This document shows, one piece after another, positions 41,121-49,561 of a stretch of DNA of 64,000 nt. The stretch comes from Deinococcus sp. (lineage in GTDB: Bacteria; Deinococcota; Deinococci; Deinococcales; Deinococcaceae). Under the pieces are notes generated by a model that saw nothing but the letters and a program-made list of their open reading frames with translations, was not told the origin of the DNA and ran no database searches. Numbering within the stretch: position 1 is the first letter of the stretch; every line of letters starts with the position of its first letter. Both the position numbers and the translations under genes were made by a program. Location of the stretch: assembly GCA_965261005.1 (NCBI GenBank), contig OZ253375.1, positions 2,880,001 through 2,944,000 of the forward strand, given 5' to 3'.

Positions 41121-41231
41121 TAACATAGGTTGGAATTAAAGCAATCCCGTATGACGTGCTGCGCGTGGACGGTGGCAAGCACATATTGGCAAGACGAGCA
41201 CGCTGGTCAGAGCGGCGACCGGGAAGATATT

Positions 41232-42122
41232 AGACCTCTTGCGAAAGTCGTGGGTTAAGCTCAAGGGGTGGAGCGAGATCGCCTGAGACGGACACTGAAG
41301 ATGAACCGCAAGCAGTTCCGCCGACGCACCGGGGTGTATCCCGAAACCTTCGCCCAGATGGAAGCGGTGCTGATCGAGCGAGAAGGACAGAAGAAGAAAT
41401 CTGGTCGTCCAGCCGCGCTCAGGGTGGCTGAACAACTTCTGATGACACTGGAATTCTGGCGCGAGTACCGCACCTTCGCGCACCTGGGTGACGACTGGGG
41501 CGTCCATGAGACCACGGTGCACCGCACGGTGGAACGTGTCGAAGAAGCCCTGATCGCCAGCCAGCAGTTCCAGATGCCTAGAAAGCGCGTGTTCCAGCAA
41601 GCGCAGACGGTCTACAGCATCGTGGCCGTCGATGCGTCCGAAGTGCCGTGTGAACGACCCAAAAAAAGCAGCGCCGCTGGTACAGCGGCAAGAAGAAGCG
41701 GCACACCTTGAAGTTCCAAGTCCTGATCTGTACCGTGACTCAGCACATCCTGGGCACGGCGACGAGTGCTGGAGCCATCCATGATCTCAAGCTGTTTCGG
41801 CAGTCTGGGGTACGGTTTCCTCATGACACGGCCCTGATCGGGGATGCGGGGTATCAGGGTTTGTGGAGAAGCCACGGGCACGCCATCACCACGCATAAGG
41901 CGACCAAGTCCAAGCCGTTGACCAAAGAGCAGCGTCGAGAAAACCGGGTGCTGGCCTATACCCGCCAAGGAATCGAACACGTCATCCGTCGCATGAAGGT
42001 CTTTCGGGTGCTCAAGGGCGTCTACCGACATCGGCGGCGTCGCTTTGCCCTTCGGGTTCAGCTCATCGCCGCCCTCTGTAACCTTACCCGCGCCCAACCC
42101 TCCTGACTTTCGCAAGAGGTCT
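41232..42122 (+). mobile_element. IS5-family element, copy 2
   Basis: TIR AGACCTCTTGCGAAAGTC/GACTTTCGCAAGAGGTCT; flanks ATT and AAT. Confidence 0.92.
41268..42106 (+). CDS. IS5-family transposase, -1 frameshift at A7 (41661-41667)
   Basis: Homologous to 12482-13317; both ORFs open. Confidence 0.88.
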
Positions 42123-42254
42123 AATGGCTCGACTGATGGGACGACGAGTATCAGCAACCAGGACTTTGTTTTTGTCCTGAACAAATGCAAAACACAGCTT
42201 ACCGTCTCTAGGACGAGCGACTTGAAATTTCTAAACAAAAGTTTAACCAAGTAA
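42123..42254 (+). pseudogene. 3' half of the split LprI/DUF1311 gene
   Basis: NGSTDG...VLNKCKTQLTVSRTSDLKFL matches the LprI C-terminal C...LT..R...L helix; fuses in frame with 45473-45769. Confidence 0.8.
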
Positions 42255-42263
42255 TAGAGAGGG

Positions 42264-42497
42264 GTGGTCGCAACTTCTAATCTGAGCTTCGCGGCGGCCC
42301 GCAATCTGGTCAACGGGGGCAGCCTAGCCGAGCCGATTGATGGCGCCGCCGAAGCGCTCTACCTGCGGCTTCGGCAGCTTCAACCCTTCTTGGACCTACA
42401 AAACCTGGAGCAACCACAGCCACCGAGCGAGCTTGCACAGGGCATCGTCAAGATAGCCACCTTTGACGCGCTCATCCGCCGTTTTCCGCAGCGGTAA
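42264..42497 (+). pseudogene. Orphan GH19 toxin C-terminal tip
   Basis: SFAAARNLVNG...GAAEALYLRLRQL aligns by eye with the effector end TFTDARLHYVG...GRVTAAIYEKLKNI. Confidence 0.55.
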
Positions 42498-42512
42498 TCA
42501 AGGGGAACTGCA

Positions 42513-43301
42513 ATGCTCACCTCACTCTTTCCACGGCTTTTCTTGGCTACGTTGTGCCTTTCGCTCTCCGTTGTCAGTGTCGCGAGCAGCGTCGACTCCG
42601 CCGCTTGGCAGCGCGCCGCCGGCGCGTATACCATCAAGCTCGACAACGGCGATATAACCGTCCTCAAAGGCGGGAAGGTCGTGTTCTCGGCGAGGGGGCA
42701 GGCAGCGAAGTACGTCCCACCCAGCTTCGTGCTGACGCGCGGTAGACAGGACGAGATGGGCTGTCTGATCGAGGTGGCTTACACGCCGCTTTCCCTGGTG
42801 GGAGACGTGCTGAGTTACCAGCGCACCTACCGCAGCGTACCCGGCGAGTGCCCCGAGCTGCTGCGCGACACGGGAACGGTCGCCCTCAAAAGCGTGAATT
42901 TGCATACCCTAGCCCCCGAGAAGATCGTCAACCTCTTCCCGGAGGCAGCCGTATTGGGTGCCTTGCGCCGCGACGCCTTCATACGGCGGCTGGCCTCGGC
43001 GGACGTGAAGACCACCACGCTCGCTGGGTTAGGGCAGCTTCTGGCACGACAGGAGGACTGCTCGGCGCGCTTCACGCCGGACGCGGGGTTTGGCTTTCAC
43101 CATCTGAAGGGCAACCTGGTGGCAGTACGGCTCGGCCTAGCCTACAGTTGTCCCAGTCTTGCAGACGACCCCAAGGTGACGCAACTGGGATTGCTGCTGA
43201 GGGCGCCGGCCGCGCTGAAGAAAGCTCTCGCCCAAGGCGTGCTGATGAATGATATGCCAAACAGCAGCGTCATCTTCGACTTCGTGCCGGCCAAGCCGTA
43301 A
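42513..43301 (+). CDS. Secreted protein, putative immunity (paralogue of 45766-46446)
   Basis: Signal peptide; LF.E..V..AL..D, VAVRLGL.YS, QLGLLL.AP.AL shared with the paralogue. Confidence 0.8.
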   Translation: MLTSLFPRLFLATLCLSLSVVSVASSVDSAAWQRAAGAYTIKLDNGDITVLKGGKVVFSARGQAAKYVPPSFVLTRGRQDEMGCLIEVAYTPLSLVGDVLSYQRTYRSVPGECPELLRDTGTVALKSVNLHTLAPEKIVNLFPEAAVLGALRRDAFIRRLASADVKTTTLAGLGQLLARQEDCSARFTPDAGFGFHHLKGNLVAVRLGLAYSCPSLADDPKVTQLGLLLRAPAALKKALAQGVLMNDMPNSSVIFDFVPAKP

Positions 43302-43330
43302 ACCTTGGCATCTAACAGCAAGGCACGGAC

Positions 43331-43379
43331 GAAAAAAGGGGCAGGAGAGGGCCGGCACATGCCAGCCCTCTCCTCTTTC
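43331..43379. terminator. Intrinsic terminator between convergent genes
   Basis: A-run, then GGAGAGGG(C)CGGC...GCC(A)GCCCTCTCC hairpin. Confidence 0.65.
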
Positions 43380-43383
43380 AGAT

Positions 43384-44298
43384 TCAGCGAAAGGTCTTGA
43401 CCCAGTCCAGAATCGCCTGGTTGCTGGCGTCGGCATTTTCGTAGATGGCGGCGTGGGCTGCGCCGGGGATGATGGCGAGCTTGGCGTTCGGAATCGCCTT
43501 TTGCAGCATCTGTGATACGGCGACGGGATAGATGCTGTCCTGCTCGCCCACCAGCACCAGGGTGGGCACCTTGATCTGGTTCAGCAGCGAGCTGTAGTCC
43601 GGGCGGTTGGCGAGGGCGTAGGCGCCCCCGATGGCCGCCTGCACCGAGGCCCGCCGAATGATGGCCGACAGGTAGCTCACCTGGGCGGGCTGGTTCAGGC
43701 GGGTGGGGCCGCTGAGCATGTCCTTGATCAGGACCGGGACCAGCGAGTCCACGCCCTTTTGCGCGGCCTGGTCGGCCACGCCGCGCCACAAGCCGGCCTC
43801 GGCGGGATTGGCGGCGGCGGCGATGGTGTCAATCAGAATCAAACCGGAAAAGCGCTGCGGCGCGCGCTTGTACATCTCCAGCACGGTTGGGCCGCCCATG
43901 CTCATGCCGCCGATGATGGCCTGTTGCACGCCCAGGCGGTCCATCACGGCCAGCGCATCTTGGGCATAGGTGCTGATCATGCTGGGCACGTTGGGGGCCA
44001 CGCTCCTGCCGTAGCCGCGCAAGTCGAGCGTGATGACCTTGTAGCCGGCGGCGGCCAGGGCGGCCCGGTTGCGCGAAAACAGGTCGCCGGACAGCGGGTA
44101 GCCGTGGATGAGCAGCATCGGCTGTCCGGTGCCCTGCACTTGATAAAAAATCCGGGCGCCGTTCACGTCGAGGGAGCCGCTTTGCGCCTGGGTTTGGGCC
44201 TGAACCGTCTGCGGGGTGGCGCTTTGGGCGAGGGCGGGCGCGCTCAGGCACAGGGCGGCGAACAGGGAAAGCTTGAGGGGCTTGAGGTGTGGCGTCAC
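43384..44298 (-). CDS. Secreted alpha/beta hydrolase
   Basis: Signal peptide, IHGYP, DLRGYG.S, GGMSMGG, GEQD, GAAH; AAGGAG RBS. Confidence 0.92.
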   Translation of the reverse strand: MTPHLKPLKLSLFAALCLSAPALAQSATPQTVQAQTQAQSGSLDVNGARIFYQVQGTGQPMLLIHGYPLSGDLFSRNRAALAAAGYKVITLDLRGYGRSVAPNVPSMISTYAQDALAVMDRLGVQQAIIGGMSMGGPTVLEMYKRAPQRFSGLILIDTIAAAANPAEAGLWRGVADQAAQKGVDSLVPVLIKDMLSGPTRLNQPAQVSYLSAIIRRASVQAAIGGAYALANRPDYSSLLNQIKVPTLVLVGEQDSIYPVAVSQMLQKAIPNAKLAIIPGAAHAAIYENADASNQAILDWVKTFR

Positions 44299-44580
44299 GT
44301 TGGAACTCCTTTGGCGGTCAAGCTCAGTCTTGAACTGGCCCCTCAGTTCAGCGCCCGGGCGTGAGTTGCCTGAGATGTCCGGGTCAAGCGGCCTACACCC
44401 GATTTAAGGGAAGCTTTGAGGAATGAAGGCCCGCTTCAATTGGGGTCGCGCCGGGCGGATAAGGTTGGGACAAGGTTGTGTGACACGAGGAGAGACAGCA
44501 GAGCCGGGGCAAACTGTGGTTGATGAGTACCCAGTTCCCCGGCACTGCTGACGCTCCCCTTCGCGCGCTCGTCGCGCAAT

Positions 44581-45472
44581 AGACCTCCTGCGAAAGTAGA
44601 GGGCTAAAGTGGGGAGAGATGGCACACGCGAACTACGAGCAGACGATGCAGTTGAACAGGACGAGTTTTCGTCGACGTACCGGGGTGTATTTAGAGACCT
44701 ACCAGCAGATGCTGTCGGTGTTGGAAGCGCGCGAGCAGCACAAGAAGAAGTCGGGGCGTCCCGGCGCCTTGACCCTGGGCGAGCAACTGTTGCTGACGCT
44801 GATGTTCTGGCGTGAGTACCGCACCTTCTTTCATTTGGGCCAGGACTGGGGCGTCCACGAAACCACCGCACAAAGGACGGTGGAGCGGGTCGAAGACGCC
44901 TTGCTCGCCAGCGGCCAGTTCTCACTCCCCGGCAAGGCGGCCCTCAAAGACAACGGAACCGTGTGGACGGCCGTACTGGTGGACGTGAGCGAAGTCCCTT
45001 GCGAACGGCCAAAAAAAACAGCGGCGCTGGTACAGCGGTAAGAAAAAGCGCCATACCATCAAGGCTTAACTGCTGCTTTCTCCCGTCACCAAAGTGATCA
45101 TCTGCACCGCGACAAGTTGCGGGAAAACGCACGACCTGACCCTGTTCCATCAGCCGAAGACGGCCATTCATCCTGAAACCGAATTGATTGCGGACGCGGG
45201 CTACCAGGGCGTTCAACGAGACCACAAAAACGCGCATACCCCCCACAAAGCCAGCAAGCGCCGCGCCCTCACCTCGCAACAGCGCCGGGAAAACCGTGCG
45301 CTGGCGCGTGTTCGCTTGACTGTCGAGCATGTCATCCGCCGGCTCAAGGTCTTTCGCGTCCTCAAGGAAACCTACCGTCACCGCAGACGCCGCTTCCTGT
45401 TGCGCCTCAACCTCCTCGCCGCCCTCCACAACGCCATGCTCCCCGGCTCAGCTTGACTTTCGCAGGAGGTCT
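44581..45472 (+). mobile_element. IS5-family element, copy 3 (defective)
   Basis: TIR AGACCTCCTGCGAAAGT/ACTTTCGCAGGAGGTCT; flanks AAT and ATT. Confidence 0.92.
44619..45456 (+). pseudogene. IS5 transposase pseudogene
   Basis: Frameshift window is 1 nt shorter than in copies 1 and 2; in-frame TAA at 45067-45069 where the others have Gln. Confidence 0.85.
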
Positions 45473-45769
45473 ATTGAAAATGGTAACTGCCTTGCAGGTA
45501 TCATCGCGGGTCTTAACCCACTCCTGCTGAGCTTCAATCACCTGATGCTTGAGTACCGAGGCGGTCTTCAAAGTGCCGATCATTCCGTCGATGCGCTTCA
45601 ATAAAGCTTTGTAGACCTTGTTAAGCTGAATGTCGGCAGATTTAAATTGGTTCGCTGAGCATACTAGGAAGTTATCGCTGTCATAGCAATCGGCCTTCAG
45701 AGTAGTCTGGGCCAGGACTCGATTCGAGACGGCCACGGTAAGGAACACCACAGGCCAATGCCAGGTCAT
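45473..45769 (-). pseudogene. 5' half of LprI/DUF1311 lysozyme-inhibitor-like gene
   Basis: Signal peptide; C...C......AD..LN.VYK.L...AQQEW.K.RD..C; cut at the IS5 right end. Confidence 0.85.
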
Positions 45770-46446
45770 GGCAACAAGCTCGTTTGTCTCTTGAGAGTTT
45801 GCATCAGTAGACCTTTGTTCTGCCCAGCTTTCAGTGTGGATAGCAAGGCGGGGGGGGCGGGTAACAGCAGCCCCAGTTGGTCGAAACCAAAATTACAGGT
45901 TTGGCTCGGCGAGTACGGCAAACCTAAGCGCACGGCCACCTTGTCGCCCTGCACAGCATAAAGCGCGAAGTTCGTCAGCCCCTCGCGGTCCAGATTGGTG
46001 CAGCCGGGTTTGCCCTGCCCATAATCGTCCAACAGCTCATCCAATGAGGTCGGATGTTGCCCAACCAACACCTTTTTTACGTAAGGGTCCATCTTCAACG
46101 CCTGAAATACATCTTGTTCTTTGAAGAGGTCCAGTAAGCTCACCGGGCGACCTGTATCTAGGTCAAACGTAGCGAAGGCCAGCAGAACCGCTGGACTGGC
46201 GTAGCAGTTGTTCTCGGTATTGGTGTACACGCTGGTATATGGCGGCGCCACGGCCAGCACCGCGCCCAGCACCTTCGACTGTTCCCCATTCGCGCAACGT
46301 TTCGGCTGAGCGTACAGGGTGATGGCGTGTCCGGCCCGGCTGGTGGTGGCCTGTTGAGGAGTCCACCGGGTGGTCCAGCCGTTGATATGTACGGTGGCGG
46401 CCTGGGCGGTCCCCCATAGCAGCATGACAATGGGCCATACCCTCAC
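45766..46446 (-). CDS. Secreted protein, putative cognate immunity protein
   Basis: Signal peptide (…TAQA); start overlaps the effector stop and stop overlaps the LprI start; 4 Cys. Confidence 0.8.
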   Translation of the reverse strand: MRVWPIVMLLWGTAQAATVHINGWTTRWTPQQATTSRAGHAITLYAQPKRCANGEQSKVLGAVLAVAPPYTSVYTNTENNCYASPAVLLAFATFDLDTGRPVSLLDLFKEQDVFQALKMDPYVKKVLVGQHPTSLDELLDDYGQGKPGCTNLDREGLTNFALYAVQGDKVAVRLGLPYSPSQTCNFGFDQLGLLLPAPPALLSTLKAGQNKGLLMQTLKRQTSLLP

Positions 46447-48905
46447 GGTTTCTCCTCGTGCGGCTCCATCACCGGTATATTTTTCAGTTTCTCGTAGATA
46501 GCGGCGGTGACGCGACCTACTACGGCGGTGTCAAATGGGCCAACGTAGTGGAGCCGGGCGTCGGTGAAGGTGCTGGCGTTCAAGCGTTTGCCCTGTAAGA
46601 AGTCCTCCAAGGAACCGGCCTTGGTATATAGGCCCTGCGACACCCCTTGTACCAGGGCACGCACAGCGATGTCCGGTCGGTTCATGGCGTCAGGGTCGTC
46701 CGTGAAGTTAATGGGGTGCCCCTGGTCGTCCTGAACAGTGCTGGAGAGGCGTTTGGTCCACTCAGCGTAGTGGCTGCGCCCGGTAATTTGTACCAGACCG
46801 CGTCCACGAAAACGGTAGCCGTCGCCGCTGGCCTCGTTGCCGTTTCCGAGTTTGTTGGCGTACACATGGTTACCAAAGCGCTCGGGGTTGCGGGCATAAG
46901 GCTCGGCGGAGGCGACAGTTGGGAACCGGCCCGGAAAGACGAGGTGCGCCCGTTCGGCGGTGTAGTACATCCCCTCGGTCTTAGGATGCAGGCCGGATTC
47001 ATGGCTGGCGTTGGCGAGCATCACGGCGATCTCGGCGGGATTAATGACGCCCTCCCGTACCGCCTCCGCGATAATCTTGGGCACGTAGACCTCCACGTTG
47101 GCTTTGGACGGTGCTTGATTCGCGTCCAGTCGCCGGGTGGCGTCCAGTACCGCCTGTTGCGCCGTCTGCACGAAGACCTGCGATATCACGGGCTGTAATT
47201 GGGGACCGCTGGGTTGCTGAGCTGGCGGGTTCCGTCCGGGCGGCATCGGTACCGGCCCTAATTTTGGCTGTGGTGGCGCTTTGGACGCGGTCTGCGGTTT
47301 TGGAGCGCGGCCGGGAACGGGACGGCCCGCTGCGTCTATCAGGTGCAGCGCACCTTGATAGGCGTGGGGGTGGACACTCTCAGCGCTGGGGGTCCAGGTG
47401 AGCGCGAGCGTCACGCCGTCCGGACTTAAAGTGCCACTGAGCCGGCCGCTCAGATGATCGCCGTCGTATTCGAGCAGGTTCAGTTTGCCTTGGGCGTCGA
47501 TGCTGCCGCTCAAGGTGAGCTGTCCTTTGCCGTAGCTGTACGCGCCGTCGATATTTTGGTTCGTGCGCGACAGGGTTGCCTCAATGGCCTTGCCGGCAAG
47601 GGTGCCGGAGAAGACGCGCGTCCACAGGGGAACGTGCAGCAAGTCGAAGGGTGACGTGGGAGGTGCTACCTGGCGTTGCAGGGCGGTTATAGGAGGGGCA
47701 CTCCGGCCGACCTGTACCGCCGCATCGTCCGTTTTCCAAGCGCCGAGCGTGGTGTCGTGAGAAACGCTTTGTGTAAAGCGTTTGCCCGCGTCCCGCGCCT
47801 CCTGCTCCAGAGCGGGGTCGGGGTCAATGCCCTTGCCCGTCACCTTCCCTTGCGCCTGCTGATAGGTGTGCGTCACCTCGTGGGCCAGCAGCTCTTGCCC
47901 CTCGGCGCTCTCGGTGTCCAGCTTGCCTTGCTGAAAGAAGATGTTCGTCCCGGTAGTGGCGGCGATGGCCTGAACCGACTTGGCGAAGCTATGGGCGGCA
48001 GGGTCGGCGTGGACCCGCACCGTTTGCAAGTGTTCTCTCGGAATGTTCAGCCCCACTTCCAATTGCCGCTGTACCGCGAGAGGCAGGGGTTGACCGCTGC
48101 CCCTCGGGATCGCTTGGGGAGCAAGGGCGTCTTCCTCTGTCAGCTTCCGTTGCAAGGCGTGCAGTTCCAGCGCCTTCTGATCCTGCGCTTGGAATTGCTG
48201 ATGCTCTTGTTCAGCCTCGTCCAGCGCTCTCTGCACCGAAGGCCGCTCACCGGCGGGTAAACGTTGCAGGACGACCTGTGCCACGTGTTTCCCTTGCGGC
48301 TGGCGTTGCACCAGGGCCAAGCTCTGCCCCAGCTCGGCGTAACGCTGGATGGTGGGGGAAGTGTCGCTTCGGAAGCGCTGCGCCAAGTCCTGCGCTGCCC
48401 GCTGCTGAATGGTCGGCCAGGCGGACATGGAGACGAAGCCGCTGTGCTGGTCGGCCTGCCGTTGCAACGACACCGCTTCATGGGCGTAGCGCTGGGCGTG
48501 GTCGGCGTAGGAAGGCTGTGACCTCGTCGGACCGCTGAAGATGGGGGGCAAGGCCGGCACCCCAGCTTGCTCGGCCTGACGTTGTAGCGCGGCTTGCAGG
48601 GCGTCCCTGGGCAGGTCGTGTTCCAGTTCGGCGATCTGACGCTGCAAAGCCAACTGCGATTGCTGACGCTGCAAGACCAAGGTGCGTTGGACCTGAGCCG
48701 CTTCGAGGACTGGGGCGGCGCTTGAACGCTGGGCGACGGCTGGTGTTGCGAAAAACTGCTGGTAACGCTCAAGGGTGCGCTGTTGCAGGTCAAGCTGGAT
48801 GGCGGCCTGATCCGGGACTGGCAGCGGGGGGATGTAGCTGATCTGCGGCGCTGCGGCTGACCTCTGCTGACCTTGCTTGCGCTCCTCGTAATCGGAATCG
48901 GACAT
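46443..48905 (-). CDS. DUF4157 (eCIS-associated HExxH) protein with C-terminal GH19 lysozyme-like domain
   Basis: GQPLP...VRVH.D..A......A.A.T.G..IFF..G...LLAHEVTH..QQ; HESG...YANKLGNG...GDGYRFRGRGLVQITGR; AGGAGG RBS. Confidence 0.9.
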   Translation of the reverse strand: MSDSDYEERKQGQQRSAAAPQISYIPPLPVPDQAAIQLDLQQRTLERYQQFFATPAVAQRSSAAPVLEAAQVQRTLVLQRQQSQLALQRQIAELEHDLPRDALQAALQRQAEQAGVPALPPIFSGPTRSQPSYADHAQRYAHEAVSLQRQADQHSGFVSMSAWPTIQQRAAQDLAQRFRSDTSPTIQRYAELGQSLALVQRQPQGKHVAQVVLQRLPAGERPSVQRALDEAEQEHQQFQAQDQKALELHALQRKLTEEDALAPQAIPRGSGQPLPLAVQRQLEVGLNIPREHLQTVRVHADPAAHSFAKSVQAIAATTGTNIFFQQGKLDTESAEGQELLAHEVTHTYQQAQGKVTGKGIDPDPALEQEARDAGKRFTQSVSHDTTLGAWKTDDAAVQVGRSAPPITALQRQVAPPTSPFDLLHVPLWTRVFSGTLAGKAIEATLSRTNQNIDGAYSYGKGQLTLSGSIDAQGKLNLLEYDGDHLSGRLSGTLSPDGVTLALTWTPSAESVHPHAYQGALHLIDAAGRPVPGRAPKPQTASKAPPQPKLGPVPMPPGRNPPAQQPSGPQLQPVISQVFVQTAQQAVLDATRRLDANQAPSKANVEVYVPKIIAEAVREGVINPAEIAVMLANASHESGLHPKTEGMYYTAERAHLVFPGRFPTVASAEPYARNPERFGNHVYANKLGNGNEASGDGYRFRGRGLVQITGRSHYAEWTKRLSSTVQDDQGHPINFTDDPDAMNRPDIAVRALVQGVSQGLYTKAGSLEDFLQGKRLNASTFTDARLHYVGPFDTAVVGRVTAAIYEKLKNIPVMEPHEEKP

Positions 48906-49247: not shown

Positions 49248-49561
49248 CAGCCCGCCCAGGTGAGCTACCTGTCGGCCATCATTCGGCGGGCCTCGGTGCA
49301 GGCGGCCATCGGGGGCGCCTACGCCCTCGCCAACCGCCCGGACTACAGCTCGCTGCTGAACCAGATCAAGGTGCCCACCCTGGTGCTGGTGGGCGAGCAG
49401 GACAGCATCTATCCCGTCGCCGTATCACAGATGCTGCAAAAGGCGATTCCGAACGCCAAGCTCGCCATCATCCCCGGCGCGGCCCACGCCGCCATCTACG
49501 AAAATGCCGACGCCAGCAACCAGGCGATTCTGGACTGGGTCAAGACCTTTCGCTGAATCTG
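49248..49561 (+). repeat. 314-bp copy of the 3' end of the hydrolase gene (inverted relative to 43379-43692); promoterless fragment
   Basis: Identical translation; only one synonymous mismatch seen (GCA/GCG). Confidence 0.95.

What the first reader, a model, noticed from the sequence alone, without database searches (positions are those of the whole stretch)
42123..48905. DUF4157-GH19 polymorphic toxin locus with layered lysozyme-inhibitor-type immunity
Seen: an 820-aa protein with a Gln-rich N-terminus, a DUF4157 HEVTH domain, a beta-rich domain, a Pro linker and a GH19 catalytic domain. It is coupled by start/stop overlaps to a secreted 226-aa protein and then to an LprI-like gene. After undoing the inversion (next finding), a 77-aa toxin-tip remnant and a secreted 262-aa paralogue of the 226-aa protein follow on the same strand. 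Known: DUF4157 proteins are associated with extracellular contractile injection systems and carry variable C-terminal toxins; this GH19 subtype includes phage muramidases; LprI binds lysozyme. Inference: a cell-wall-targeting interbacterial weapon in Deinococcus with cognate, generic and orphan immunity genes. No injection-apparatus genes are in the window, so delivery is encoded elsewhere or uses another route.
Basis: partly seen in the sequence, partly recalled or inferred. Interest (0 to 1): 0.9.

Follow-up and report, generated by a model that had tools for sequence, protein, structure and literature searches.

The report
Cell-wall toxin with RsiV-like immunity protein
This is a bacterial weapon gene that carries a cell-wall-cutting enzyme, probably as cargo of a phage-tail-like injection machine, followed by a gene for a secreted protein that most likely shields the producer by plugging that enzyme's active site.

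Summary
The locus is real. The 820-aa protein has a Gln-rich N-terminal region, a DUF4157/eCIS_core domain (HEVTH), a small beta domain, a Pro linker and a C-terminal GH19-type endolysin-like muramidase domain. It overlaps by 4 nt a 226-aa secreted protein, which overlaps an LprI-like gene.

New here:
- The genome holds 14 DUF4157 genes. Thirteen share an 82-100% identical N-terminal region and have varied C-termini, mostly peptidoglycan hydrolases.
- The same genome has a contractile-injection locus about 0.5 Mb away.
- The 226-aa and 262-aa proteins belong to a large unnamed family that is a divergent relative of the RsiV/DUF4163-DUF3298 lysozyme-inhibitor fold.
- A co-fold places the 226-aa protein over the catalytic cleft (score 0.76, best control 0.00).
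- In 5 of 8 other Deinococcota loci examined, a homologue sits directly downstream of a muramidase gene. One locus repeats the order muramidase, homologue, LprI.
- The 77-aa ORF is the 3' tail of a paralogous GH19 toxin.

Corrections:
- The window's LprI gene is cut at codon 97 by an IS5 element.
- Pfam Glyco_hydro_19 does not hit the protein itself.
- After inversion the orphan pair lies upstream of the toxin, not downstream.

Verdict: a known kind of toxin locus with a previously undescribed immunity family.

The parts
46443..48905 (-). Toxin gene, 820 aa: N-terminal region + DUF4157 + beta domain + Pro linker + GH19-like muramidase domain
   Evidence: ORF and translation. Pfam eCIS_core E 4.5e-21. 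PDB endolysin matches. AGGAGG before the ATG.
48090..48905 (-). N-terminal region, aa 1-272: 18% Gln, with 13 [VLIAM]QR motifs. Candidate system-specific loading sequence.
   Evidence: 82-100% identical in 13 genes of the genome. Composition and motif count. Role inferred from AlgoCIS Cgo1/Cgo2 (passages of bioRxiv 10.64898/2026.05.27.728243).
47847..48089 (-). DUF4157 / eCIS_core domain, aa 273-353, with HEVTH
47346..47648 (-). Small beta-rich middle domain, about aa 420-520
   Evidence: Shared at 33-35% identity with 6 paralogues. Also found in muramidase toxins of other genomes. Weakly similar to the C-terminus of a paralogue's 307-aa downstream protein, E 7e-4.
47136..47327 (-). Pro-rich linker, about aa 527-590
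   Evidence: Sequence.
46446..47135 (-). GH19-type endolysin-like muramidase domain, aa 591-820. Glu636 and Glu644 are invariant among 50 aligned relatives.
   Evidence: Active-site equivalence to PaGH19Lys/9EOI from passages of PMC12329726.
45766..46446 (-). 226-aa secreted protein: candidate cognate immunity protein with an RsiV/DUF3298-like fold
   Evidence: GTGA overlap with the toxin stop. AF2 model pLDDT 92.6. Fold matches. Co-fold score 0.76 against 0.00. Genomic context in other genomes.
45477..45769 (-). LprI-like gene, native codons 1-97. The ORF runs on to 45407 inside the IS.
   Evidence: PF07007 E 4.1e-10, profile positions 15-81 of 106. IS junction.
44577..45476 (+). IS5-family element with 21-nt terminal inverted repeats. 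The transposase is split into two ORFs.
42513..43301 (+). 262-aa secreted paralogue of the 226-aa protein: orphan immunity candidate
42264..42497 (+). 77-aa remnant of the 3' end of a GH19-type toxin gene
41229..42125 (+). Second IS5-family element, 71% like the first. It bounds the orphan module.
43379..43692 (.). Left arm of the 314-nt perfect inverted repeat. It carries the 3' end of the alpha/beta-hydrolase gene 43384-44298(-).
49248..49561 (.). Right arm of the inverted repeat, a duplicated hydrolase 3' end
   Evidence: It forms its own short-read contig at about twice the flanking depth.

Best explanation
The 820-aa protein is an antibacterial effector of the DUF4157 (PVC-metallopeptidase) class of polymorphic toxins.

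- Its Gln-rich N-terminal 270 aa are shared almost unchanged by 12 other genes of the genome. I infer that this region is the system-specific loading sequence that brings the protein into the tube of the genome's contractile injection system.
- The C-terminal GH19-type domain is inferred to be a muramidase that cuts the peptidoglycan of a rival cell once delivered to its periplasm or wall.
- The effector has no signal peptide, so it is harmless inside the producer.
- The co-translated 226-aa protein is exported. It protects the producer and its kin from incoming effector by sitting on the catalytic cleft, as the distantly related RsiV does on lysozyme.
- The 262-aa gene with its 77-aa toxin tail is an orphan module left from a second GH19 toxin.
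- The LprI-like gene is a second, generic muramidase-inhibitor type of immunity gene. In this copy an IS element has truncated it.

What is shown by computation: domain content, paralogy, presence of injection-system genes, fold likeness, predicted interface and gene neighbourhoods. What is inferred: loading, delivery, enzymatic specificity and protection.
For: 1. Architecture. eCIS_core matches at E 4.5e-21. The C-terminal domain matches endolysins 9ms6 (2.3e-23), 9eoi (5.3e-18) and 4ok7 (5e-7). 9EOI is PaGH19Lys, a muramidase with no chitin activity and active site H50, E51, E60, Y103, Q127, T129 (passages of PMC12329726). The matching Glu636 and Glu644, and the QIT motif, are invariant in 50 aligned relatives. 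Relatives are named GH19 by NCBI or carry PF00182.

2. Polymorphic-toxin logic. The genome has 14 PF13699 matches. Thirteen share the N-terminal region at 82-100% identity. Their C-termini include CHAP, NlpC/P60, GH19-like, SH3 or no known family. Of the 13, 10 have a low-GC ORF starting within 25 nt of the stop, and 3 have an IS-related ORF there instead. ORFs behind the wall hydrolases begin with hydrophobic, signal-like N-termini, read by eye.

3. Injection system. Sheath, two gp19 tubes, gp25, Baseplate_J, Tail_P2_I and a VgrG-like spike lie at C1:2392039-2411205. Pvc16_N and PAAR lie elsewhere. Across 125 genomes of the family, 35 have both DUF4157 and Pvc16_N, 9 have DUF4157 only, 3 have Pvc16_N only and 78 have neither. 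AlgoCIS cargo has the same layout of disordered N-terminal region, DUF4157 and C-terminal domain, and there the N-terminal region is required for loading (passages of bioRxiv 10.64898/2026.05.27.728243).

4. Immunity.
- The AF2 model has pLDDT 92.6.
- The top four of 48,161 chains are all DUF3298/RsiV structures: 3cyg Z 8.6 (rmsd 4.3, 151 aligned), 4e72 Z 7.9, 3s5t Z 7.4, 5jen_C Z 7.0. The next chain scores 5.8.
- Foldseek ranks 5jen first, probability 0.98.
- The only PDB hit of the family profile is the DUF3298 protein 3s5t, at E 0.35.
- 8 of 128 family members hit PdaC/DUF4163.
- The nearest Atlas clusters are named DUF3298/PdaC and 'putative RsiV family', score 0.93.
- RsiV binds the lysozyme active site and inhibits the enzyme (passages of PMC5014341).
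- Co-fold: score 0.76, best of 3 controls 0.00. That mark was reached by 116 of 157 solved complexes and 2 of 215 mismatched pairs. The runs agree in at least 94% of contacts, and the partner pLDDT is at least 89. The interface includes domain residues 54, 58, 92, 111, 116 and 118, and the family's most conserved loop, 78-89.

5. Context elsewhere. Of 8 non-self Deinococcota loci examined, 5 have a muramidase gene directly upstream of the homologue. Two are GH19-like and three are PF11860. In one of them the muramidase sits in a DUF4157 protein, and another repeats the order muramidase, homologue, LprI.

6. LprI. Both LprI genes of the genome lie in DUF4157 toxin islands.
Against: - No experiment exists. 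Binding, activity, loading and protection are all predictions.
- Pfam PF00182 does not hit the protein itself.
- The fold match is middling (Z 7-8.6, TM 0.3-0.4). The tool notes that Z under 8 can reflect only a common arrangement.
- The co-fold used my own alignments, so its calibration holds only roughly.
- The 226-aa family is large: 835 clusters. Outside Deinococcota, 0 of 5 loci examined had a muramidase neighbour in the flanks held, which were 1.5 kb for three of them, and one lay at a contig end. Of the 20 members longer than 400 aa that I scanned, 14 are fused to LysM or SH3_3. The family is therefore not a dedicated immunity family.
- The four GH19+NlpC/P60 paralogues are followed by an unrelated protein of about 310 aa.
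- The injection genes are scattered. No AAA+ gene lies beside the locus; there are 21 AAA matches, all elsewhere.
- 9 of 44 DUF4157-positive genomes of the family lack Pvc16_N.
- Related genomes are not independent samples.
Confidence: 0.65

Rival explanations
1. The protein is a toxin, but the contractile injection system does not deliver it. It leaves the cell by another route, such as lysis, vesicles or an unknown secretion path, and DUF4157 serves only as a processing peptidase.
For: The toxin gene lies about 0.5 Mb from the injection locus. No AAA+ loader gene lies near that locus. 9 of 44 DUF4157-positive genomes of the family have no Pvc16_N match. In AlgoCIS, DUF4157 itself is dispensable for loading (passages).
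Against: 35 of 44 DUF4157-positive genomes carry Pvc16_N, and 35 of 38 Pvc16_N-positive genomes carry DUF4157. The layout matches proven tube cargo. Geller et al. report an odds ratio of 2614 for DUF4157 in eCIS loci (passages of PMC8213781).
Confidence: 0.13
2. The muramidase acts on the producer itself. It lyses the cell to release injection particles or takes part in programmed death, and the 226-aa protein times or restrains that lysis instead of giving immunity to attack.
For: eCIS particles are released by cell lysis, and Geller et al. suggest that toxins may contribute to lysis (passages of PMC8213781). The domain is endolysin-like.
Against: A release function does not explain thirteen varied paralogues with matched downstream genes, orphan toxin-tail and immunity modules, and a C2 array of repeated tail/immunity cassettes. 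All of these are the signature of conflict between strains. The toxin also has no signal peptide or holin partner to reach its own wall.
Confidence: 0.08
3. The 226-aa protein is not the immunity protein. It is a wall-associated accessory protein, and the LprI-type protein is the true inhibitor.
For: LprI-domain proteins with signal peptides are the predicted immunity partners of T6SS lysozyme-like effectors in Pantoea and Salmonella Dublin (passages of PMC9796082 and PMC8867033). The 226-aa family is often fused to LysM or SH3_3. It is not next to muramidases outside Deinococcota.
Against: The LprI gene here is truncated while the toxin is intact. The 226-aa gene is the one that overlaps the toxin stop. 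The co-fold passes. The orphan module keeps a 226-aa paralogue and no LprI. 4 of the 5 muramidase-linked loci elsewhere showed no LprI, by tblastn over the loci held and Pfam on the ORFs I picked.
Confidence: 0.09
4. The C-terminal domain is a chitinase aimed at fungi or other chitin-bearing targets.
For: JGI names many relatives 'predicted chitinase'. GH19 holds both chitinases and endolysins (abstract of PMC8547705 in the listing).
Against: The best solved relatives are all endolysins. The one with published assays, 9EOI, cuts peptidoglycan and not chitin. Sibling toxins carry CHAP and NlpC/P60 peptidoglycan peptidase domains. A periplasmic inhibitor would be pointless against a chitinase.
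Confidence: 0.04

Closest known systems
DUF4157 / PVC-metallopeptidase polymorphic toxins, the eCIS-associated toxins of Geller et al. 2021 (PMC8213781, passages read)
   Same: DUF4157 with HExxH lies N-terminal to a variable toxin domain. A peptidoglycan-hydrolase toxin (EAT10) and some toxin-immunity pairs are reported. The genome carries eCIS genes.
   Different: The toxin is not in or beside the injection operon. It is one of 13 scattered paralogues with a shared long N-terminal region. Most of the arsenal targets the cell wall. The papers read name no immunity family for muramidase toxins. I did not read their supplements.
AlgoCIS cargo proteins Cgo1/Cgo2 (bioRxiv 10.64898/2026.05.27.728243, passages read)
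   Same: The same three-part order: a disordered, system-specific N-terminal region, then DUF4157, then a variable C-terminal domain. In AlgoCIS the N-terminal region is needed for loading into the tube.
   Different: No sequence likeness was tested. There are 13 cargo candidates here and two there. Loading is not shown here. No loader ATPase was found beside the locus.
T6SS muramidase effector and immunity pair Tse3-Tsi3 (abstract of PMC3792639 seen in the listing)
   Same: It works alike. The effector has no signal peptide and acts in the rival's periplasm, and a periplasmic immunity protein blocks the enzyme.
   Different: A different delivery machine, a different muramidase family and an unrelated immunity fold. 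Membership is not claimed.
RsiV extracellular domain (DUF4163 + DUF3298) bound to lysozyme, PDB 5JEN (PMC5014341, passages read)
   Same: The same fold family by four lines of evidence. RsiV binds the lysozyme active-site pocket and inhibits the enzyme. The co-fold places the 226-aa protein over the muramidase cleft.
   Different: Only about 12% identity. No Pfam DUF3298 hit. No transmembrane or anti-sigma part. The partner is a bacterial GH19-type toxin, whereas RsiV binds a C-type animal lysozyme.
LprI (PF07007) immunity candidates in T6SS islands (PMC9796082 and PMC8867033, passages read)
   Same: A small LprI-domain protein with a signal peptide, encoded downstream of a muramidase-type effector and also found as an orphan.
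   Different: It is third in the operon here, behind another immunity candidate, and it is truncated by an IS element.
GH19 endolysins PaGH19Lys (9EOI) and SPN1S (4OK7)
   Same: A homologous catalytic domain. The His-Glu, second Glu and Gln-x-Thr active-site residues are conserved.
   Different: The domain is fused behind about 590 aa of delivery-related sequence and is not part of a phage lysis cassette.

Membership tests
DUF4157 / eCIS_core polymorphic toxin | Pfam PF13699 match above the curated cut-off | tested here: met
   75.2 bits against a cut-off of 22, aa 273-353.
DUF4157 / eCIS_core polymorphic toxin | HExxH zinc-binding motif | tested here: met
   HEVTH is present in this protein and in all 13 paralogues printed.
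DUF4157 / eCIS_core polymorphic toxin | Conserved N-terminal part with varied C-terminal toxin domains among paralogues | tested here: met
   N-terminal region 82-100% identical in 13 genes. The C-termini differ.
DUF4157 / eCIS_core polymorphic toxin | The genome encodes a contractile injection system | tested here: met
   Sheath, tube x2, gp25, Baseplate_J, Tail_P2_I and a VgrG-like spike. Pvc16_N and PAAR. No AAA+ gene lies beside the locus.
DUF4157 / eCIS_core polymorphic toxin | The protein is physically loaded into and ejected by the particle | not testable with these tools
   This needs particle purification and mass spectrometry.
Glycoside hydrolase family 19, endolysin branch | Pfam PF00182 match above cut-off | tested here: not met
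   No hit at E <= 0.1 on this protein. Three paralogues score 17.6-22.7 bits against a cut-off of 25.5. Relatives at 31-57% identity carry a precomputed PF00182 hit or the NCBI name GH19.
Glycoside hydrolase family 19, endolysin branch | Sequence homology to solved GH19 endolysins | tested here: met
   9eoi at E 5.3e-18 and 4ok7 at E 5e-7. Both are called GH19 endolysins in PMC12329726.
Glycoside hydrolase family 19, endolysin branch | Two catalytic glutamates and the Gln/Thr of the cleft | tested here: met
   E46, E54, Q116 and T118 of the domain are invariant in 50 sequences. They align to H50-E51, E60 and Q127/T129 of 9EOI.
Glycoside hydrolase family 19, endolysin branch | Muramidase and not chitinase activity | not testable with these tools
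   This needs an enzyme assay.
RsiV / DUF4163-DUF3298 lysozyme-inhibitor fold (226-aa and 262-aa proteins) | Pfam DUF3298 (PF11738) or PdaC (PF13739) match | tested here: not met
   No Pfam hit for either protein at E <= 0.1. 8 of 128 family members hit PdaC, best E 1.2e-5.
RsiV / DUF4163-DUF3298 lysozyme-inhibitor fold (226-aa and 262-aa proteins) | Shared three-dimensional fold | tested here: met
   The top four of 48,161 chains are 3cyg, 4e72, 3s5t and 5jen, Z 8.6-7.0 with 151-172 residues aligned. The next chain scores 5.8. Foldseek gives the same four entries among its first twelve ranks. Atlas neighbours are named DUF3298/PdaC/RsiV. The Z values are middling.
RsiV / DUF4163-DUF3298 lysozyme-inhibitor fold (226-aa and 262-aa proteins) | Binds the muramidase active site and inhibits it | tested here: inconclusive
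   The co-fold scores 0.76 against 0.00 and covers the catalytic residues. This is a prediction and not a measurement.
LprI (PF07007) | Pfam match above cut-off | tested here: met
   40.4 bits against a cut-off of 22.
LprI (PF07007) | Full-length domain | tested here: not met
   Only profile positions 15-81 of 106 match. The gene runs into the IS after codon 97.

The most novel reading that the evidence does not exclude
The 226-aa and 262-aa proteins may represent a large, unnamed branch of the RsiV/DUF3298 superfamily (835 clusters at 50% identity) whose general job is to inhibit bacterial and phage muramidases of more than one family, here GH19-type and PF11860. Members would act either as soluble periplasmic immunity proteins or tethered to the wall through LysM or SH3 domains. 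On this reading, Deinococcaceae injection systems are antibacterial weapons whose main payload is a set of wall hydrolases loaded through one shared N-terminal sequence.
Probability: 0.3. Interest if true: 0.75.

Novelty: new variant of a known kind. Interest (0 to 1): 0.55.

Why it matters
- Most studied eCIS payloads act on eukaryotic cells. A genome with 13 candidate cargo proteins that share one N-terminal sequence, most of them peptidoglycan hydrolases with matched secreted partners, is a good model for antibacterial use of these machines and for defining a loading signal.
- The immunity candidate links a widespread family with no Pfam model of its own to a testable role, proteinaceous inhibition of GH19-type and PF11860 muramidases. 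I found no paper making that link in two full-text searches.
- Such inhibitors bear on resistance to endolysin-based antibacterials.

Tried and rejected
- Word-index search with the 226-aa protein found only 2 relatives. The full HMMER search showed that this was a limit of sensitivity and not rarity.
- The first AF2 model, built from 4 sequences, was poor (pLDDT 71.9) and its Foldseek matches were weak. I replaced it with the 128-sequence model.
- The search for related loci failed with the 44-sequence alignment because no stretch was conserved enough. With the 4-sequence alignment it returned 3 loci, none with a muramidase neighbour.
- A survey of 401 Bacteroidota genomes gave only 3 with a homologue, so I did not pursue it further.
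- Synteny could not date the inversion. The alpha/beta-hydrolase homologues in 2 of 3 genus relatives are only 50-56% identical, and neither flanking gene of the window was found beside them.
- Public runs gave no answer on orientation. Two runs of one study hold the stretch, but only as short-read contigs. These break at the 314-nt repeat and cannot tell the orientation of the 5.5-kb segment. No RNA holder was listed.
- The 77-aa ORF has no similarity to this toxin's own C-terminus. Its source is a paralogue.
- BLAST found no likeness between the 226/262-aa proteins and the downstream proteins of the other wall-hydrolase toxins.
- The earlier-findings index held nothing for this genome.
- NCBIfam gave no family for the toxin, the 226-aa, the 262-aa or the LprI protein.

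Full report
**The observation**

The region 40.5-49 kb has 55-64% GC, against about 67-73% in the flanks. ORF 46443-48905(-) encodes 820 aa.
- Pfam gives eCIS_core (formerly DUF4157) at aa 273-353, E 4.5e-21 and 75.2 bits against a cut-off of 22. The only other hit is a sub-threshold Phage_lysozyme2. Glyco_hydro_19 is not hit at E <= 0.1.
- The first 272 aa are 18% Gln and hold 13 [VLIAM]-Q-R motifs, against 2 in the remaining 548 aa.
- The C-terminal 230 aa match solved endolysins: 9ms6 at E 2.3e-23, 9eoi at 5.3e-18, 8p8e at 4.9e-15, 4ok7 at 5e-7.
- An AGGAGG lies 6 nt before the ATG. The toxin stop overlaps the GTG of the 226-aa ORF (GTGA), whose stop overlaps the ATG of the LprI-like ORF (ATGA).
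- LprI PF07007 matches at E 4.1e-10, but only over profile positions 15-81 of 106.

**The GH19 call**

A search with the C-terminal domain found 490 proteins at E <= 1e-5. Of the 120 listed, many carry a precomputed PF00182 hit or are named 'glycoside hydrolase family 19 protein' or 'predicted chitinase'. In an alignment of 50 of them, E46, E54, Q116 and T118 of the domain are invariant. These are Glu636, Glu644, Gln706 and Thr708 of the protein.

PDB 9EOI is PaGH19Lys. Passages of PMC12329726 state that it cuts peptidoglycan and not chitin, chitohexaose or chitosan. They give its active site as H50, E51, E60, Y103, Q127 and T129. In the HMMER alignment the His-Glu-Ser and Gln-Ile-Thr motifs of the two proteins line up.

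I therefore file the domain as a GH19-type endolysin-like muramidase by homology. The Pfam membership test itself is not met.

**Mobile elements and the inversion**

Two IS5-family elements lie at 41229-42125 and 44577-45476. Each has 21-nt terminal inverted repeats, they are 71% alike, and both have split transposase ORFs.

The second element cuts the LprI-like gene after codon 97. The last 23 codons of that ORF are IS sequence, and the far flank encodes nothing LprI-like.

A 314-nt perfect inverted repeat (43379-43692 / 49248-49561) brackets a 5.5-kb segment. The segment holds most of an alpha/beta-hydrolase gene, the IS element, and the LprI, 226-aa and toxin genes. Because the repeat is the hydrolase's 3' end, the hydrolase stays whole in either orientation.

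Inverting the segment would put the toxin operon on the + strand, downstream of the 77-aa and 262-aa ORFs. They would precede the toxin and not follow it.

In short-read contigs of a public run the repeat forms its own contig at about twice the flanking depth. This fits two copies, but contigs cannot tell the orientation.

**The genome-wide picture**

The genome is 3.27 Mb in 2 contigs and has 14 PF13699 matches.
- Thirteen of them share this toxin's N-terminal 270 aa at 82-100% identity. The fourteenth, an 1821-aa protein, does not.
- The C-termini of the 12 siblings differ. Three carry CHAP above its cut-off, four have sub-threshold NlpC/P60, three have sub-threshold Glyco_hydro_19, one has SH3_3 just under its cut-off, and four have no Pfam match beyond eCIS_core.
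- By tblastn, six siblings hold a region like this toxin's C-terminal domain, at 27-35% identity.
- Ten of the 13 are followed within 25 nt by an ORF of 37-58% GC. The other three have an IS-related ORF there. ORFs behind the wall hydrolases begin with hydrophobic, signal-like stretches, while two behind toxins of unknown type do not (read by eye).
- The contig-2 toxin is followed by an array of repeated toxin-tail and immunity cassettes.

This is the classic anatomy of polymorphic toxin systems.

**The injection system**

The 1821-aa DUF4157 protein lies in a locus at C1:2392039-2411205. The locus also holds a sheath, two gp19 tube proteins, gp25, Baseplate_J, a Tail_P2_I protein fused to FHA, a 1401-aa kinase-FHA protein and a VgrG-like spike.

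Single Pvc16_N and PAAR genes lie elsewhere. None of the 21 AAA matches is next to the locus.

In 125 genomes of the family, DUF4157 and Pvc16_N occur together in 35. Nine have DUF4157 alone, 3 have Pvc16_N alone and 78 have neither.

From the literature:
- Geller et al. describe DUF4157, earlier called PVC-metallopeptidase, as an eCIS core domain placed N-terminal to toxins. They report a peptidoglycan-hydrolase toxin, EAT10 (passages of PMC8213781).
- A 2026 preprint shows that AlgoCIS cargo has the order disordered N-terminal region, DUF4157, C-terminal domain. The N-terminal region is required for loading, and DUF4157 is dispensable (passages).
- No paper in the library holds both 'Deinococcus' and 'DUF4157'.

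**The 226-aa and 262-aa proteins**

They are paralogues: 29% identity over 132 aa, E 2e-9. Neither has a Pfam or NCBIfam family.

A profile of four sequences found 835 cluster representatives at E <= 1e-3 and 554 at <= 1e-10. Of 37 that I scanned, the 17 short ones had no Pfam family. Of the 20 longer than 400 aa, 14 were fused to LysM and/or SH3_3.

With 128 sequences the AF2 model reached pLDDT 92.6 and pTM 0.88. Five lines of evidence point to the RsiV family:
- VIA-align against 48,161 chains put four structures first: 3cyg (Z 8.6, rmsd 4.3, 151 aligned), 4e72 (7.9), 3s5t (7.4) and 5jen_C (7.0). The next chain scored 5.8. The RsiV paper itself names 3CYG as RsiV's best structural match.
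- Foldseek ranked 5jen first, at probability 0.98 but E 1.4e-3.
- The family profile's only PDB hit is the DUF3298 protein 3s5t, at E 0.35 over the conserved G-A-H-P loop.
- 8 of 128 members hit PdaC/DUF4163.
- The nearest Atlas clusters are named DUF3298/PdaC and 'putative RsiV family', score 0.93.

Each line is modest, but they agree. RsiV binds the active-site pocket of lysozyme and inhibits it at a 1:1 ratio (passages of PMC5014341).

**The co-fold**

I folded the GH19 domain (50-row alignment) with residues 17-226 of the 226-aa protein (128-row alignment). The score was 0.76, and the best of 3 controls was 0.00. That mark was reached by 116 of 157 solved complexes and 2 of 215 mismatched pairs. 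The runs agree in at least 94% of contacts, and the partner pLDDT is at least 89. Because I supplied my own alignments, those counts hold only roughly.

The interface includes domain residues 54, 58, 92, 111, 116 and 118, which are six of the 15 invariant positions and include the second Glu and the Gln/Thr of the cleft. On the other side it includes loop 78-89, the family's most conserved loop.

The model supports binding but does not show it. A solved RsiV-lysozyme complex exists, though with a different lysozyme family and about 12% identity.

**Gene neighbourhoods elsewhere**

In 364 genomes of the phylum, 10 have a homologue at E <= 1e-5, this genome included. I examined 8 of the 9 non-self loci. 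The weakest match, in G121, was left out.
- In 5 of the 8, a muramidase gene lies directly upstream on the same strand. Two are GH19-like by tblastn, at E 8e-17 and 1e-15. Three are PF11860 'Muramidase', at E 9e-33 to 5e-29.
- One of the PF11860 domains ends a 1098-aa DUF4157 protein.
- In another genome the order is muramidase, homologue, LprI (136 aa, E 3.2e-9).
- Of the other three loci, one ends at a contig edge, one shows no recognisable upstream gene, and one lies among housekeeping-looking genes.

Outside the phylum, none of 5 loci had a muramidase in the flanks held. The link is therefore a feature of the Deinococcota members and not of the whole family.

**The orphan module**

The 77-aa ORF is 85% identical over 59 aa to aa 837-895 of two sibling toxins. 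That stretch aligns with the last helix region of this toxin's own GH19 domain. The ORF is therefore the 3' tail of a second GH19-type toxin, and the 262-aa gene 16 nt downstream is its orphaned partner.

Within this one window, then, a GH19 tail is followed by a member of the same family twice.

One point against a simple one-to-one rule: the four GH19+NlpC/P60 siblings are followed by an unrelated family of about 310 aa.

**LprI**

The genome's only other LprI gene is full length (135 aa, E 6.5e-19). It lies at the far end of the low-GC island behind another DUF4157 toxin, with transposase genes between them.

LprI-domain proteins with signal peptides are already predicted as cognate or orphan immunity proteins for T6SS lysozyme-like effectors in Pantoea and Salmonella Dublin (passages of PMC9796082 and PMC8867033).

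The idea of a second, generic layer of immunity is reasonable, but in this copy the gene is broken.

**Verdict**

This is a polymorphic toxin-immunity locus of a known class: DUF4157 toxins tied to contractile injection systems. Three things are new:
- the size and wall-directed bias of the arsenal in this genome;
- the shared long N-terminal region as a candidate loading signal;
- the assignment of the cognate and orphan immunity candidates to a large unnamed branch of the RsiV/DUF3298 fold.

Two searches for papers joining DUF3298 or RsiV with immunity proteins found only the RsiV papers themselves. Everything functional remains to be tested at the bench.

Noticed in passing
G000 C1:361,6xx; C1:957,8xx; C1:2,579,6xx; C1:2,739,4xx (loci L015, L016, L017, L020): Four of the 13 toxin paralogues carry the same in-frame TAG at one position of the shared N-terminal region ('SAWPTI*GRATQD', where the others read 'SAWPTIQQRAAQD'). 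The surrounding DNA is identical in all four. The cause could be gene conversion spreading a nonsense codon, read-through, or restart at a downstream codon.
   Followed up: partly
window 43379-43692 and 49248-49561: A 314-nt perfect inverted repeat duplicates the 3' end of the alpha/beta-hydrolase gene and brackets a 5.5-kb segment. The hydrolase stays intact in either orientation. The repeat has about twice the flanking depth in short-read contigs. Whether both orientations exist could not be told.
   Followed up: partly
G000 C2:95077-102412 (locus L014): The 1307-aa toxin on contig 2 is followed by an array: a 335-aa ORF, a 144-aa toxin-tail remnant, a 324-aa paralogue, a 92-aa remnant with the main toxin's exact C-terminal residues, and a 215-aa paralogue fragment. 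This looks like a textbook orphan-cassette array.
   Followed up: no
G000 C1:2394355-2399488 (locus L024): The injection locus includes a 1401-aa Ser/Thr kinase-FHA protein and a Tail_P2_I baseplate protein fused to an FHA domain. This hints at control of the baseplate by phosphorylation.
   Followed up: no
window 47346-47648 (toxin aa 426-517) and L021:9205-10128: The toxin's small beta-rich middle domain is weakly similar (27% over 107 aa, pairwise E 7e-4) to the C-terminal 105 aa of the 307-aa secreted protein encoded behind a GH19+NlpC/P60 sibling toxin. The same small domain may therefore occur in both toxins and their partners.
   Followed up: partly
protein P0009 (1041 aa) and other long hits: The best-scoring database relative of the 226-aa family holds three copies of the domain together with SH3_3 and LysM wall-binding domains. 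14 of the 20 long members scanned carry LysM and/or SH3_3.
   Followed up: partly
G000 C1:2672911-2674980, C1:2579687-2582287, C1:1024539-1026665: Three sibling toxins are followed at once by the same IS-related sequence (an identical 214-aa ORF) and not by an immunity-like ORF. Transposable elements seem to remodel these loci repeatedly.
   Followed up: no
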